Assembly (NCBI RefSeq): GCF_009914755.1 | Contig: NC_060932.1 | Length of the DNA: 64,000 nt | Source: the human T2T-CHM13v2.0 reference genome, Homo sapiens | Direction: 5' to 3' (one strand) | Shown: positions 45,815-50,964 of the stretch, one piece after another | Layout of the letters: the number at the start of each line of letters is the position of its first letter | Position numbering within the stretch: position 1 is the stretch's first letter | Translations under genes and position numbers: made by a program | The notes under the pieces: model-generated | The model's input: the letters and a program-made list of their open reading frames with translations, nothing else | Databases searched by the model: none | What the model was told of the DNA's origin: nothing

Positions 45815-45965
45815 TGACATTCTATATGAAAATGTGTGTGTGTATGTGCAAATTTATTAGAATGATTATGAAAAATATGTAAGCATTCTGACATTCTATA
45901 TGAAAATGTGTGTATGTATGTTCAAATTTATTAGAATGATTATGAAAAAATATGTAAGCATTCTG
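45815..45965. repeat. 74-bp tandem duplication
   Basis: tgacattctatatgaaaatgtgtg...tatgtaagcattc x2, with 2 substitutions and a 1-nt indel. Confidence 0.95.
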
Positions 45966-46304: not shown

Positions 46305-46392
46305 CTTCCTTTTTCTTTCCTTTCTTTCTTTCCTTTCTTTCTTCCTTTTCCTTCCTTCCTTCCTTCCTTCCTTCCTTCCTTCCTTCCTTCCT

Positions 46393-46432
<40 letters not shown>

Positions 46433-46514
46433 TCCTTCCTGCCTTCCTGCCTTCCTGCCTGCCTTCCTGCCTGCCTTCCTGCCTGTCTTCCTGCCTTCCT
46501 GCCTTCCTTCCTCT
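46305..46514. repeat. Compound (TTTC)/(CTTC)n/(CCTG)n microsatellite in an Alu tail
   Basis: Directly abuts the 3' end of the antisense AluJ. Confidence 0.95.
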
Positions 46515-46816
46515 TTTTGGAGACAGGGTCTCCCTCTGTCACTCAGGTTAGAGCGCCTCATGGTGTGATCACTGTTCACTGCAGCCTTGACCTCCTGGGC
46601 TCAGGTGATCCTCCCACCTCAGCCTCCAGGGTAGCTGGAACTACAGGTACAGGTATACACCACCACATCCAGCTAATTTTTTGTTATTTTCTTTTTTGTA
46701 GAGATGAGGTTCGCCATGTCGTCCAGGTTGGTCTTGAACTCCTGGGTTCGAGCAATCTGCCTGCCTTGGTCTCCTGAAGTGCTGGGATTACAGGCATAAG
46801 CCACCATGCCCAGCCC
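46515..46816 (-). mobile_element. AluJ
   Basis: gagacagggtctc...cactgcagccttgacctcctgggctcag; degenerate TSD atgtaat(g)cttc. Confidence 0.9.
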
Positions 46817-47819
46817 ATGTAATGCTTCAACCAGGCATTTATTTTTTATTTCAGCAAAACAATTTTATGAATCTCATTAATGTTTAAATTTTATTGGCTT
46901 TATGGTCTATTTCTATTATAAATTTTGTTTGATTTTATAATTGACTCAATAATTTATGCTTAATTTTCTTTACAAATGATAATACAGCTTAGAGCTTTCA
47001 ACTTTTCTTCACCCTTTGAATACAACCCTTTGGAATCAACTATGGGTTATACCACAAGATACTTCAGGATAACACTTTGTGAACAAGGGTTAGTTTCTTA
47101 ACTATTTTGTGTTCCAATTTCTTTATGTGTAAAAATGAGGATGCTTATGTGAACAATACAGGCTGTGTAAAGAGTCCATGAGGTCATGAAAGCATCATAC
47201 TTGCCAAGCTGAAAAGTGAGGCAGAATTCAGTGGAAAACATGAGAAGTGAAATTCTAGGTGTCCAATAAACACAATTTGAATCCAAATGCCTGATATAAG
47301 TCAATGAATGAACAAATAAACCTTAATTCAACCAGACTAGACTGTACCTTGGTTATAAGATTTGTTTATTCATTTCTATATATTAATAATGTATTGAATG
47401 TCTCTTATGCGCCAGGACTACCCTAGACATGGGGGATATATAGATAAGTGAGACAGAGTTTGCCACCTCAAAGTGCTCTAAGACAAGTGAACAAATGGTT
47501 ATAACATAGGGTAGTAATTACAATAAGAGGATAGAAGAGACAGTTGTGTGAACAAAAGGAGGGTGTTGCATACGTGGAATGTGAGGATGACCAGGAAGAA
47601 TTCAGGGAGAGAATAGTACTCGAGTTTGGTCTTGAAGGAGAAGTAGGAAGTATTCATTTCAGGAAAGAGATGTCCTAGGCAGATGGAACAGCCAGTGTGG
47701 AGACATAGGGTGGGTGTAAGAGTATAGTGTCTTCCGGAAGACCCATGTAGTTCAGGATGGCTGGAGCACAGGATATAAGAGGAGGAGAAGGAAGAGATGA
47801 AGCTCAAGACGTGGGCAGG

Positions 47820-48286
47820 TGTGGCAGGCAGGTTAATGCCTCCTTCCCCAAAATAGATGTCCACATCCTCACATCCTTATCTCCAGAACCTGTAATTATG
47901 TTTCTACATATGGCACAAGAGATTTTGTAAACATGGTTAAATTAAGGAGCATATGGCTGGGCCCAAAGTAACTACAAAGATTCTTATAAGTAAAAGAAGG
48001 AGGTAGATGAGATAGACAGGCAGAGAGAGAAACAGAGAAAGAGAGAGAGACTATACTGTGGATCAAGGGATGTTGGTAGCCTCTAGAAGCTGAACAAACT
48101 TCAAGCCCACTAATTCTTCTCTAGAGCCTCCAGAAGGAAAGCAGCCCTGCGGATACCTTGATTTGAGTCAAGTAGGGCTTATGCCAAACTTCTAATCTCC
48201 AGAATTGCAAGATTTGAAACATTGTTTGGTTTTAAGCCGCTACTGTGTGGTTATTTCTTACAACAGCAACAGGAAACTACTTAACA
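47820..48286 (+). mobile_element. MLT1D-like solo LTR
   Basis: tgtggcaggcagg...aggaaactacttaaca; perfect 5-bp TSD gcagg (47815-47819 / 48287-48291). Confidence 0.85.
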
Positions 48287-48360
48287 GCAGGCGACAGGGT
48301 ACACGTAAAGCCCTATTTTCTTTCTAAGGAACAGAAATTTTCTTTCCATGCAGTAGGAAG

Positions 48361-49354
48361 TGAAGGCAGCCAGCACCTCCACACCTGTGGGTATTTCTTG
48401 TCAGGTGGCACGAGAGACTGAGAAAAGAAATAAGACACAGAGAAAAAGTACAGAGAAAGAACAGTGGGCCCACGGGATCGGCGCTCAGCATACGGAGGAC
48501 CCGCACCAGCACTGGTCTCTGAATTCCCTCAGTATTTATTGATTACTATTTTCACTATCTCAGCAAGGGGAATGCGGCAGGAGAACAGGGTGATAGTGGG
48601 GAGAAGGTCAGCAGGAAAACATGAGCAAAGGAATCTGTGACACAAATAAGTTTAAGGGAAGGTACTATGTCAGGATGTGCACATAGGCCAGATTTATGCT
48701 TCTCTCTACCCAAACATCTTAGTGTATAGTAAAGAGTAACAGAGTAGCATTGCCACAGTATATCTCGCCTCCAGCCACAGGGCGGTTTTCTCCTATCTCA
48801 GAATAGAACTAATGTACGATTGGGTTTTACAATGAGACATTCCGTTCCCAGGGGCACATAGGAGACGGAGGCCTTCCTCTTATCTCAACTGCAAGAAGCC
48901 TTTCTCTTTTACTAATCCTCCTCAGCACAGATCCTTTACTGGTGTTGGGCTGTGGGACCGTCAGGTCTTTCCCTTCCCACAAGGCCATATCTCAGGCTGT
49001 CTCAGTGGGCAGAAACCTTGGTCAATACCCAGGCTTTCTTGGGCAGAGGTCCCTGCGGCTTTCTGCAGTGCGTTTTGCCCCTGGTTAGTAGAGAATGGAG
49101 AATGGTGATGACTTTTACCAGGCATACTGCCTGCAAACATATTATTAACAAGGCATAACTTGCACAGCCCTAGATCCCTTAAACCTTGATTCAATACAGC
49201 ACATGTTTCTGTGAGCACAGGGTTGGGGCTTAAGTTACAGATTAACAGCATCTCAAAGCAGAACAATTTTTTTTAGTACAGATCAAAATGGAGTTTCTTA
49301 TGTCTTCCTTTTCTACATAGACACAATAACGGTCTGAGCTTTCTTTTCCCTACA
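48361..49354 (-). mobile_element. HERV-K(HML-2) LTR5 (older LTR5B/5A type), complete
   Basis: Minus strand reads tgtagggaaaagaaag...gtgtggaggtgctggctgccttca, 994 bp; polyA signal at 48535-48540. Confidence 0.95.
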
Positions 49355-49366
49355 TGGGAAAATAAG

Positions 49367-49566
49367 TTTCAGCAAAACAATTTTATGAATCTCATTAATG
49401 TTTAAATTTTATTGGCTTTATGGTCTATTTCTATTATAAATTTTATTTGATTTTATAATTGACTCAATAATTTATGCTTAATTTTCTTTACAAATGATAA
49501 TACAGCTTAGAGCTTTCAACTTTTCTTCACCTTTTGAATACAACCCATTGGAATCAACTATGGGTT
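49367..49566 (+). repeat. 200-bp dispersed duplicate of 46849-47048
   Basis: Direct copy; 3 substitutions and no indels counted by eye. Confidence 0.97.
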
Positions 49567-49567
49567 G

Positions 49568-49645
49568 ATGGCAGTTTTGTCAAAAAGAAAAGGGGGATGT
49601 GTGGGGAAAAGAAAGAGAGATCAGACTGTTACTGTGTCTATGTAG
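49568..49645 (+). pseudogene. env: HML-2 env C-terminal remnant including the polypurine tract
   Basis: Translates [25 protein letters not shown], matching the recalled HML-2 Env tail [25 protein letters not shown]; PPT aaaaagaaaagggggatg. Confidence 0.9.
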
Positions 49646-50598
49646 AAAAGGAAGACATAAGAAACTCCATTTTGATCTCTACCCTGAACAACTGTTTTGC
49701 CTTTAGATGCTGTTAATCTGTAACTTTAGCCCCAACCCTGTACTCACAGAAACATGTGTTGTATAGAATCAAGGTTTAAGGGATCTAGGGCTGTGCAGGA
49801 TATGCCTTGTTAATAATATGTTTACAGGCAGTATGCTTGGTAAAAGTCATCACCATTCTCCATTCTCGATTAACCAGGGGCAAAATGCACTGCAGAAAGC
49901 TGCAGGGACTTCTGCCCAAGAAAGCCTGGGTATTGTCCAAGGTTTCTCCCCTCTGAGACAGCCTGAGATGTGGCCTCGTGGGAAGGGAAAGACCTGATCG
50001 TCCCCCAGCCCGACACCTGTAAAGGGTCTGTGCTGAGAAGGATTAGTAAAAAAGAAAGGCCTCTTGCAGTTGAGATAAGAGAAAGGCCTCCATCTCCTAC
50101 ATGTCCCTGGGAACAGAACGTCTCCTTGTAAAACCCGATCATACATTCGTTCTATTCTGAGATAGGAGAAAAACCACCCTGTGGCTGGAGGTGAGATATG
50201 CTGGCGGCAATGCTGCTCTGTTACTTTTTGCTACACTAAGACGTTTGGGTGGAGAGAAGCATAAATCTGGCCTACGTGCACATCCAGACATAGCACCTTC
50301 CCTTAAACTTATTTATGACAGATTCCTTTGCTCACATGTTTTCTTGCTGACCTTCTCCCCACTATTACCCTGTTCTCCTGCCGCATTCCCCTTGCTGAGA
50401 TAGTAAAAGTAGTAATCAATAAATACTGAGGGAATTCAGAGACCGGTGCCGGTGCGGGTAGTCCCTATGTTGAGCGCCGGTCCCCTGGGCCCACTGTGCT
50501 TTCTCTATACTTTTTTCTCTGTGTCTTATTTATTCTCTCAGTCTCTCATTCCACCTGAAAAGAAATACCCACCTGTGTGGAGGGGCTGGCCCCCTTCA
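49600..50598 (+). mobile_element. HERV-K(HML-2) LTR5 (older LTR5B/5A type), complete 3' LTR
   Basis: tgtggggaaaagaaagagagatcag...ggggctggcccccttca, 999 bp; aataaa at 50418-50423. Confidence 0.95.
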
Positions 50599-50964
50599 AG
50601 GAAGAGACTGCGGGATTTTGAGACAGAAGGTGATTTTTATTTTTTAAGTGCTTATTCTGACTGACGTGAAGAAGATGGAATGGAAGGAGCGGAGGCAAGG
50701 AGAGCAACTCCAAGGCCATGTTAATAATTTAGGAGGGGTATTGTGCAGGCATAGCTTGCCTTATTGTGCATCTCTTTACGGCATTTCACAGATATTACAT
50801 ATTTTACTAATGGAAGGTTCGTAGCAATCCTGAGGCAAGCAAATCTATTTGCACCATTTTTCCAAAAGCACATACTCACTTCATGTCCCTATCACATTTT
50901 TTTTAATTCTTGCAATATTTCAAACTTTATTATTATATCTGTTATGGTGATCTGTGATCAGTGA

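What the first reader, a model, noticed from the sequence alone, without database searches (positions are those of the whole stretch)
49367..49566. 200 bp of neighbouring host DNA captured between the inverted LTRs
Seen: 49367-49566 is a same-orientation copy of 46849-47048 (offset 2518 bp) with only 3 substitutions, no poly(A) and no TSD. It replaces almost all proviral internal sequence. Known: locally templated insertions are signatures of break repair by template switching or polymerase-theta end joining. Inference: this is the repair patch joining the two viral halves. Copy divergence (3/200) is well below LTR-LTR divergence (about 24 differences in about 325 nt, counted by eye). Either the patch is younger and a larger palindromic provirus collapsed later, or the LTRs already differed at insertion. 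The AT-rich, CpG-poor copy also mutates more slowly, which weakens this comparison.
Basis: partly seen in the sequence, partly recalled or inferred. Interest (0 to 1): 0.8.

Follow-up and report, generated by a model that had tools for sequence, protein, structure and literature searches.

The report
Host DNA patch between inverted LTRs
A 200-base copy of nearby human DNA sits between two back-to-back ends of an ancient HERV-K retrovirus on chromosome 8, and it looks like a scar of DNA break repair inside a virus copy that inserted in an abnormal, mirror-image form.

Summary
49367-49566 is an ungapped direct copy of 46849-47048, 197 of 200 identical. The T2T genome holds only these two full copies.

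The copy lies between two complete HML-2 LTR5B LTRs that face each other. One is at 48361-49354 (minus strand), the other at 49600-50598 (plus strand). Their U3 ends point inward and their U5 ends outward.

Three results are new:
- The whole pair is flanked by a direct 6-bp AGGAAG repeat (48355-48360 and 50599-50604). Everything between the repeats therefore entered as one integration unit, and copy B is the derived copy.
- The two LTRs are sister sequences. They share 10 exclusive changes, as many as a true 5'/3' LTR pair, while unrelated pairs share at most 4.
- The patch diverges by 1.5%. The LTRs diverge by 9.0% overall and 7.0% at non-CpG sites (P = 0.0004). The patch therefore looks several-fold younger than the integration.

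Best reading: an abnormal integration through two U5 ends, followed by a later break in the centre. That break was repaired with a 12-nt filler plus a 200-nt copy templated from DNA 2.3 kb away.

A published catalogue lists the two LTRs as unrelated solo LTRs. The locus is a neat single case of known repair processes. The integration form is the more unusual part.

The parts
46849..47048 (+). Copy A: source (template) of the 200-nt patch, in ordinary host DNA 33 nt downstream of an Alu
   Evidence: It lies outside the target-site duplication, so it is the original.
47049..48354 (.). Host DNA between the source copy and the integration site (1306 nt); contains an old interspersed repeat at about 48113-48279
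48355..48360 (+). Left copy of the 6-bp target-site duplication AGGAAG
   Evidence: The chance of such a 6-mer identity at this spacing is 29 of 61700 positions in the window.
48361..49354 (-). Left LTR (HML-2 LTR5B, 994 nt), complete from TGTAGGG to CCTTCA. Its U5 end abuts host DNA and its U3 end faces inward. There is no PBS and no PPT beside it.
   Evidence: Listed as HML2.LTR456 in the supplement of PMC3228705.
49355..49366 (+). 12-nt filler TGGGAAAATAAG of unresolved origin. It matches the mirrored LTR start at 9 of 10 positions.
   Evidence: Unique in the window. The similarity test is only suggestive: 778/20000 shuffles and 111/20000 random 12-mers reach the score.
49367..49566 (+). 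Copy B: the 200-nt templated patch, 197/200 identical to copy A
49567..49599 (+). 33 nt of proviral internal sequence ending in the polypurine tract, the only internal sequence left
   Evidence: Aligns with the sequence upstream of the 3' LTRs in L005, L012, L026, L028 and L032.
49600..50598 (+). Right LTR (HML-2 LTR5B, 999 nt), a 3' LTR preceded by the PPT; its U5 end abuts host DNA
   Evidence: Listed as HML2.LTR457.
50599..50604 (+). Right copy of the 6-bp target-site duplication AGGAAG

Best explanation
**Step 1 (shown indirectly).** Roughly 20-40 million years ago one aberrant HML-2 (LTR5B) DNA integrated at a single AGGAAG target. It joined the host through two U5 ends, which left two LTRs facing each other with U3 inward.

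**Step 2 (inferred).** Later, the DNA between the arms broke or stalled a replication fork. Whatever lay there was lost, except 33 nt next to the right LTR.

**Step 3 (anatomy shown, mechanism inferred).** The gap was closed by error-prone, synthesis-dependent joining. The joint consists of a 12-nt filler and a 200-nt tract copied in direct orientation from host DNA 2.3-2.5 kb to the left on the same or the sister chromatid. The joints have at most 1 nt of microhomology.

The 200-mer is therefore a repair scar. It is neither a captured gene fragment nor a retrotransposed copy, and it has no evident function.
For: **The copy is real and unique.** 197/200 identical and ungapped. Only two full copies exist in the genome.

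**Polarity.**
- A direct AGGAAG sits at both outer LTR/host junctions.
- The chance of such a 6-mer identity is 29/61700 in this window.
- Family solo LTRs show perfect 5- or 6-bp duplications. By my reading of the boundaries these are L006, L007, L014 and L030 (6 bp) and L009, L027 and L031 (5 bp).
- Neither LTR has a duplication of its own: the left LTR's flanks are AGGAAG and TGGGAA.
- As a control, the neighbouring inverted pair HML2.LTR206/207 on chr3 shows the opposite pattern. Each LTR has its own 6-bp duplication (GGTAGT, AGAAGA) and the pair has no shared outer one.

**One source for both arms.**
- The arms are sisters in trees of 29 and 33 LTRs, with support 93/97 and 83/97 and a stem of 0.019.
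- They share 10 exclusive states, equal to the 6p21.1 5'/3' LTR pair. Among 528 pairs the median is 0 and unrelated pairs reach at most 4.
- Private exclusive changes are 30 and 29.

**Relative age.**
- Arms: 89/990 overall and 65/935 at non-CpG sites. Patch: 3/200.
- Binomial P(<=3) is 3.7e-4 at the non-CpG rate. Fisher p is 0.0015.

**Not retrotransposition.** No poly(A) and no duplication around copy B.

**Present in GRCh37.** The same 245-nt spacing is recorded there.
Against: - No outgroup genome could be examined, so neither the empty site nor a pre-patch state has been seen.
- The age contrast rests on only 3 differences (95% interval 0.3-4.3%). Gene conversion between the two direct 200-mers would erase it.
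- The left breakpoint falls exactly at the U3 terminus of the left LTR. A random later break does not explain this. A join made at the time of integration would.
- 200 nt copied from 2.3 kb away is far larger and more distant than typical polymerase-theta inserts. Those are mostly under 25 bp, with about 85% primed within 10 bp (PMC5068794 passages). It is also more distant than the yeast MMBIR inserts, whose templates lie within 100 bp (PMC8421209 passages).
- Microhomology at the joints is 0-1 nt, which is uninformative.
- The site lies in unique DNA, so no paralogous empty site exists to confirm the duplication.
Confidence: 0.6

Rival explanations
1. The patch was made at the moment of integration. 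Two short viral DNAs, each little more than one LTR, each gave a U5 end to one concerted integration. Host end joining then closed their free inner ends, copying 200 nt from DNA 1.3 kb from the site. The two 200-mers stayed alike by gene conversion or by chance.
For: - It explains why the left LTR ends exactly at its U3 terminus, which is a natural viral DNA end.
- It explains why the template is so close to the integration site.
- LTR pairs of this family are known to under-report age. 6p21.1 is dated 9.8-17.8 My by LTR divergence, yet its oldest common ancestor is listed as rhesus (table passage of PMC3228705).
Against: - 3/200 against an expected ~14 at the arms' non-CpG rate, P = 3.7e-4.
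- Even if every AT<->GC difference in the arms is assigned to G:C sites, my hand calculation from the counts expects about 9 differences.
- 200 bp is short for sustained gene conversion.
- The inverted arms themselves show no homogenisation; they are 9% diverged.
Confidence: 0.2
2. The patch was templated from RNA. The left LTR points leftward, so a transcript starting in it would read through 47049-48360 into copy A. A cDNA of that transcript was then used to fill a break between the arms.
For: Geometry only. Copy A lies 1.3 kb downstream of the left LTR in that LTR's own transcriptional direction. The absence of introns or poly(A) is compatible with a fragment of a nascent transcript.
Against: There is no evidence of transcription here, no poly(A), and no other sign of reverse transcription. 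DNA-templated synthesis explains the same facts with fewer steps.
Confidence: 0.08
3. Two independent LTR insertions happened to land either side of host DNA that already contained a local 200-bp duplication. On this view the AGGAAG match is a coincidence.
For: A published catalogue treats the two as separate solo LTRs with slightly different ages, 20.3 and 18.6 My. The real chr3 pair LTR206/207 shows that independent inverted neighbours do occur.
Against: - Neither LTR has its own duplication.
- The outer 6-mers match (chance about 5e-4).
- The LTRs are sisters with 10 exclusive shared changes.
- The right LTR still carries its PPT, so it is not a solo LTR.
- Only 245 nt separate them.
Confidence: 0.03
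4. Assembly artefact: the duplicate was created by mis-assembly of T2T-CHM13.
For: None beyond the general possibility. Raw reads were not available.
Against: The hg19 catalogue coordinates give the same 245-nt gap between the LTRs. The two copies differ at 3 positions, and copy B has unique junctions on both sides.
Confidence: 0.01

Closest known systems
Templated insertions of polymerase-theta-mediated end joining (delins with flank-derived inserts; PMC5068794 and PMC4912351; passages read for the first, search listing and abstract for the second)
   Same: The insert is copied from DNA flanking the break, in direct orientation. It is accompanied by loss of sequence, has minimal (0-1 nt) priming homology, and sits beside a short extra filler that may be a snap-back product.
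   Different: Typical inserts are under 25 bp, and about 85% are primed within 10 bp of the break. Here 200 nt were copied from 2.3-2.5 kb away with at most 3 errors, a much longer and more accurate tract.
Microhomology-mediated break-induced replication / template-switch insertions (PMC8421209, passages read)
   Same: A polymerase switches to a nearby template, copies a stretch and returns. The result is an insertion with a nearby donor and no mobile-element hallmarks.
   Different: The yeast-defined signature uses templates within 100 bp, flanked by microhomology. Here the donor is kilobases away and microhomology is not demonstrable.
HERV-K(HML-2) LTR5B solo LTRs HML2.LTR456 and HML2.LTR457 (Subramanian et al. 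2011, PMC3228705, Additional file 2, read in full)
   Same: These are the same two LTRs, with the same subgroup call (LTR5B) and ages of about 19-20 My.
   Different: The catalogue lists them as two separate solo LTRs. The word 'inverted' does not occur in the main text. The shared outer duplication, the sister relationship, the PPT remnant and the host-DNA patch are not noted there.
Concerted integration of two separate U5 donor ends, as in in-vitro integrase assays (recalled, not read here)
   Same: Two U5 termini join to the two target strands a fixed number of base pairs apart, giving a normal-length target duplication.
   Different: Known to me only as a test-tube reaction. Here it would be a germ-line event fixed in a primate genome.
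Centre-break revision of DNA palindromes in mammalian cells (recalled, not read here)
   Same: Long inverted repeats are broken near their centre of symmetry and stabilised by asymmetric central deletions or insertions.
   Different: The pre-event palindrome is hypothetical here. The apparent delay of many million years before the patch is not what fast palindrome revision would predict.

Membership tests
Locally templated insertion at a break-repair junction | Insert matches a nearby genomic template and nothing else | tested here: met
   197/200 identical to 46849-47048. Only two full copies exist in 3.1 Gb.
Locally templated insertion at a break-repair junction | No hallmarks of retrotransposition (poly(A), own target duplication) | tested here: met
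   The flanks of copy B are TGGGAAAATAAG and GATGGCAG. There is no A-run and no repeat.
Locally templated insertion at a break-repair junction | Microhomology (at least 1 nt) at the template-switch points | tested here: inconclusive
   Right joint: a T is possible if the provirus read ...T|GATGG, as in L026, L028 and L032 but not in L005 or L012. Left joint: hidden behind the 12-nt filler.
Canonical polymerase-theta templated insert | Short insert (mostly under 25 bp) templated within tens of bp of the break | tested here: not met
   200 nt copied from 2.3-2.5 kb away, against the sizes quoted in PMC5068794.
HERV-K(HML-2) LTR5B element | LTR sequence similarity and TG...CA termini | tested here: met
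   87-91% identity to the listed genomic copies (86-91% over all full-length rows), including catalogued 4p16.3a, 6p21.1 and 1q43. Both LTRs are listed as LTR5B.
HERV-K(HML-2) LTR5B element | Normal provirus or solo LTR: LTRs in direct orientation, each element flanked by its own 5-6-bp duplication | tested here: not met
   The LTRs are inverted. Neither has its own duplication. The pair shares one outer AGGAAG.
HERV-K(HML-2) LTR5B element | PPT upstream of the 3' LTR and PBS downstream of the 5' LTR | tested here: inconclusive
   The PPT is present before the right LTR. There is no PBS next to either LTR.
L1-mediated insertion or transduction | Poly(A) tail and 7-20-bp target duplication | tested here: not met
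   Neither is present around 49367-49566.
Tandem or segmental duplication | The second copy continues with the sequence that follows the first | tested here: not met
   Identity ends after 200 nt. Copy A continues ATACCAC and copy B continues GATGGCA.
Palindrome centre-break revision | Pre-existing long palindrome whose centre was replaced | not testable with these tools
   The arms are 91% complementary with a 245-nt spacer. The earlier state would need other primate genomes.

The most novel reading that the evidence does not exclude
The locus is a fossil of a germ-line retroviral integration made through two U5 ends, from a head-to-head dimer, a fold-back copy or two partial reverse transcripts. 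My four literature searches found no description of this class of provirus for endogenous retroviruses. On this reading its kilobase-long inverted arms later provoked a centre break in the hominid lineage. That break was healed by an unusually long (200-nt), accurate, kilobase-distant templated insertion. The locus would then be a dated, natural example of both an aberrant integrase product and of palindrome-centre repair in human ancestry.
Probability: 0.45. Interest if true: 0.6.

Novelty: new member of a known kind. Interest (0 to 1): 0.45.

Why it matters
**For the patch itself.** It is a clean germ-line example of a long, locally templated insertion with both donor and acceptor intact. 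Such a case helps calibrate how far and how accurately repair synthesis can copy.

**For retrovirology.** The more interesting point is the setting. Two LTRs catalogued as unrelated solo LTRs are in fact one integration unit with both U5 ends outward. This implies that integrase can fix a mirror-image product in the germ line.

**For catalogues and dating.**
- LTR-based dating and solo-LTR counts treat such pairs wrongly.
- A 1-kb inverted repeat with a 245-nt spacer is a potential hairpin former.
- The two direct 200-mers could mediate a 2.5-kb deletion polymorphism.

None of this suggests a function for the sequence.

Tried and rejected

2. **Origin of the 12-nt filler.** It occurs once in the window at up to 1 mismatch. 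Its best similarity is to the mirrored LTR start, which could mean snap-back synthesis or a remnant of a second LTR.
   - The match was not significant against 8 nearby targets (938/5000 shuffles).
   - It was only suggestive against the mirrored start alone (778/20000 shuffles, 111/20000 random 12-mers).
   - The origin is left unresolved.

3. **Paralogous empty site.** The left flank matches an old repeat only at query positions 14-180 of 261. The right flank matches one only at 140-292 of 292. The integration site itself is therefore unique DNA and no paralogue can show the pre-insertion state.

4. **Genome-wide search for other head-to-head LTR pairs.**
   - A gapped pattern with a 0-3000 gap was rejected as a bad gap.
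   - With a 0-30 gap there were 0 matches. Wider spacers could not be scanned this way.
   - I read all 947 rows of the published solo-LTR table by eye and found 10 opposite-strand neighbour pairs within 8 kb. One is this locus, and I checked 2 of the other 9.
   - LTR162/163 is a nested insertion.
   - LTR206/207 is two independent solo LTRs, each with its own duplication.
   - A by-eye scan can miss rows.

5. **APOBEC signature in the 10 shared changes.** There are 5 G>A changes, in GA (3) and GC (2) contexts and none in GG. This is too few to interpret.

6. **Literature.** Searches for inverted LTRs with target duplications, head-to-head proviruses and U5-U5 products found nothing relevant. 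The library lacks most subscription journals.

7. **Scripted duplication survey.** The survey mis-set some LTR ends (for example L014). The survey I cite is my reading of the boundaries printed.

Full report
**Observation**

The repeat finder reports a single two-copy direct repeat of 200 nt at 46849-47048 and 49367-49566, 2518 nt apart. A base-by-base comparison gives 197 of 200 identical positions without gaps. The differences are at 46927/49445 (G/A), 47014/49532 (C/T) and 47029/49547 (T/A). Identity ends sharply on both sides.

A search of the whole 3.1-Gb assembly with the 200-mer found these two places. It found only one other match, 50 nt at 84% on another chromosome. Copy B has no poly(A) and no flanking duplication.

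**Anatomy**

Copy B sits between two inverted LTRs.

| Part | Coordinates | Notes |
|---|---|---|
| Left LTR | 48361-49354, minus strand | complete, TGTAGGG... to ...CCTTCA |
| Filler | 49355-49366 | TGGGAAAATAAG, 12 nt |
| Copy B | 49367-49566 | 200 nt |
| Internal remnant | 49567-49599 | 33 nt ending in the polypurine tract |
| Right LTR | 49600-50598, plus strand | complete, TGTGGGG... to ...CCTTCA |

- The U3 ends point inward and the U5 ends point outward.
- The 33-nt remnant aligns with the sequence upstream of the 3' LTRs of five other proviral copies: L005, L012, L026, L028 and L032. The right LTR is therefore a 3' LTR.
- The left LTR has neither a polypurine tract nor a primer-binding site beside it.

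**Family**

The closest genomic copies are 86-91% identical. They include loci whose position, strand and length match catalogued HML-2 proviruses 4p16.3a, 6p21.1 and 1q43 (table passages of PMC3228705). A 27-nt LTR-start motif matches 1397 places at up to 3 mismatches and 0 in the reversed control.

The supplement of that paper lists both arms as separate solo LTRs of subgroup LTR5B:
- HML2.LTR456: chr8 (-) 140061132-140062122, 20.3 My.
- HML2.LTR457: chr8 (+) 140062367-140063366, 18.6 My.

The 245-nt gap in hg19 equals the 12+200+33 nt here. The same spacer length is therefore present in an independent reference assembly. The main text of the paper does not contain the word 'inverted'.

**New point 1: one target-site duplication around the pair**

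The six bases left of the left LTR (48355-48360) and the six bases right of the right LTR (50599-50604) are both AGGAAG, in direct orientation.

- *Chance.* Across the window, a 6-mer identity at that spacing occurs at 29 of 61700 positions. The 5-mer version occurs at 89 of 61700.
- *Family habit.* Solo LTRs of this family carry 5- or 6-bp duplications. On the boundaries printed, I read perfect 6-bp repeats in L006, L007, L014 and L030. I read perfect 5-bp repeats in L009, L027 and L031.
- *No individual duplications.* Neither arm has a duplication of its own. The left arm's flanks are AGGAAG and TGGGAA.
- *Control.* I examined another inverted neighbour pair from the catalogue, HML2.LTR206/207 on chr3, which has a 5.4-kb spacer and 96.8% identical LTRs. 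There each LTR has its own 6-bp duplication (GGTAGT and AGAAGA), and the outer flanks do not match. A third pair, LTR162/163, is a simple nested insertion.

The chr8 pair therefore behaves as one integration unit whose two ends are both U5 ends. This also fixes polarity. Everything between the two AGGAAG copies is inserted material, so copy B is derived and copy A is the template.

**New point 2: the arms come from one source**

- In maximum-likelihood trees of 29 and 33 LTRs the two arms are sisters. Support is 93/97 and 83/97, with a shared stem of 0.019.
- Their end branches are 0.055-0.058 and 0.068-0.070, against a family median of 0.047-0.05.
- They share 10 states found in at most one other row. 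This is the same number as the 5' and 3' LTRs of the 6p21.1 provirus. Among all 528 pairs the median is 0, and unrelated pairs reach at most 4.
- Strictly private changes are 30 and 29.
- 19 of the 89 arm-to-arm mismatches are CpG transitions, the usual mark of decay inside a methylated genome.

The 9% divergence is thus what two copies that were identical at integration would accumulate.

With the clock used in PMC3228705 (0.24-0.45% per My between LTRs; passage read), 9.0% gives about 20-37 My. This agrees with the catalogue's 19-20 My per LTR.

**Relative age of the patch**

- The arms differ at 89 of 990 aligned sites, and at 65 of 935 non-CpG sites (7.0%).
- The patch differs at 3 of 200 sites (1.5%; 95% interval 0.3-4.3%) and contains no CpG.
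- At the non-CpG rate about 14 differences are expected. P(<=3) is 3.7e-4 and Fisher p is 0.0015.
- Even in the extreme case where every AT<->GC difference in the arms is assigned to G:C sites, my hand calculation from the counts expects about 9 differences in the 75% A+T patch.

Scaling by the non-CpG ratio (0.22) puts the patch at roughly 4-9 My, with an upper bound near 13-25 My. The patch therefore looks several-fold younger than the integration, unless gene conversion kept the two 200-mers alike. That cannot be excluded with three differences.

**Mechanism**

The geometry is that of a deletion-insertion scar. One side is the left LTR plus a 12-nt filler. The other side is the last 33 nt of the provirus. 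Between them is a direct-orientation copy of DNA from the left flank.

Flank-templated inserts in direct orientation, single-nucleotide priming and short error-prone fillers are the described signature of polymerase-theta end joining (passages of PMC5068794). Template switching to nearby DNA is the signature of MMBIR (passages of PMC8421209).

However, the sizes quoted there are an order of magnitude or more smaller than 200 nt copied from 2.3-2.5 kb:
- Polymerase-theta inserts are mostly under 25 bp, with about 85% primed within 10 bp.
- MMBIR templates lie within 100 bp.

I therefore assign the patch to synthesis-dependent, template-switching break repair in general. I do not assign it to canonical polymerase-theta joining.

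Microhomology at the right joint is at most one T. The left joint is masked by the filler. The filler matches the mirrored LTR start at 9 of 10 positions. That would fit either snap-back synthesis or a remnant of a second, plus-oriented LTR abutting the first. The match is only suggestive, however.

**What remains open**

- The left breakpoint coincides with the exact U3 terminus of the left LTR. A random later break does not predict this. It would be predicted by a join of a natural viral DNA end at integration (rival 1), or by an original U3-to-U3 junction at the centre of a head-to-head dimer.
- The integration site lies in unique DNA between two old repeats, so no paralogous empty site exists.
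- No primate outgroup, pangenome or raw reads were available.
- Of the 10 opposite-strand neighbour pairs within 8 kb that I found by eye among the 947 catalogue rows, one is this locus.
- My four literature searches for such proviral forms found nothing relevant. The library lacks most subscription journals.

**Verdict**

The patch itself is a new member of a known kind: a templated repair insertion, unusually long and distant. The more unusual feature is its host, an HML-2 LTR pair that integrated through two U5 ends and has been catalogued as two unrelated solo LTRs. Comparison with ape and monkey orthologues would settle both the timing and the original structure.

Noticed in passing
48355-50604: The two inverted LTR5B LTRs share one outer 6-bp AGGAAG duplication and are sister sequences. 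A published catalogue lists them as separate solo LTRs (HML2.LTR456 and HML2.LTR457).
   Followed up: yes
contig 14: 89960838-89961683 of the window's genome (rows; no locus fetched): An LTR5-type copy on the minus strand (query 1-780) lies directly beside a 64-nt plus-strand piece that matches query 776-840. This is a small local inversion or fold-back inside an LTR.
   Followed up: no
L058:7149-9144 (contig 3: 38140149-38142144): A plus-strand LTR5B is split at about position 779 by a full minus-strand LTR (HML2.LTR162/163 in the catalogue). This is a nested insertion, not an inverted integration product.
   Followed up: partly
L061+L062 (contig 3: 189704649-189711957): Two LTR5_Hs solo LTRs lie head to head, 5.4 kb apart and 96.8% identical. 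Each has its own 6-bp duplication (GGTAGT, AGAAGA). They served as a control here.
   Followed up: yes
46316-46536: A long (CCTT/CCTG)n-type microsatellite runs into the 5' end of an Alu that ends about 33 nt before copy A.
   Followed up: no
45815-45949: There is a 61-nt direct repeat, 97% identical, with 74-nt spacing.
   Followed up: no
L012 / L022 (contig 6: 42722386-42732345, the 6p21.1 provirus): The 5' and 3' LTRs differ by only about 0.055 in tree distance, although the catalogue lists rhesus as the oldest common ancestor. This is an example of LTR divergence under-reporting age.
   Followed up: partly
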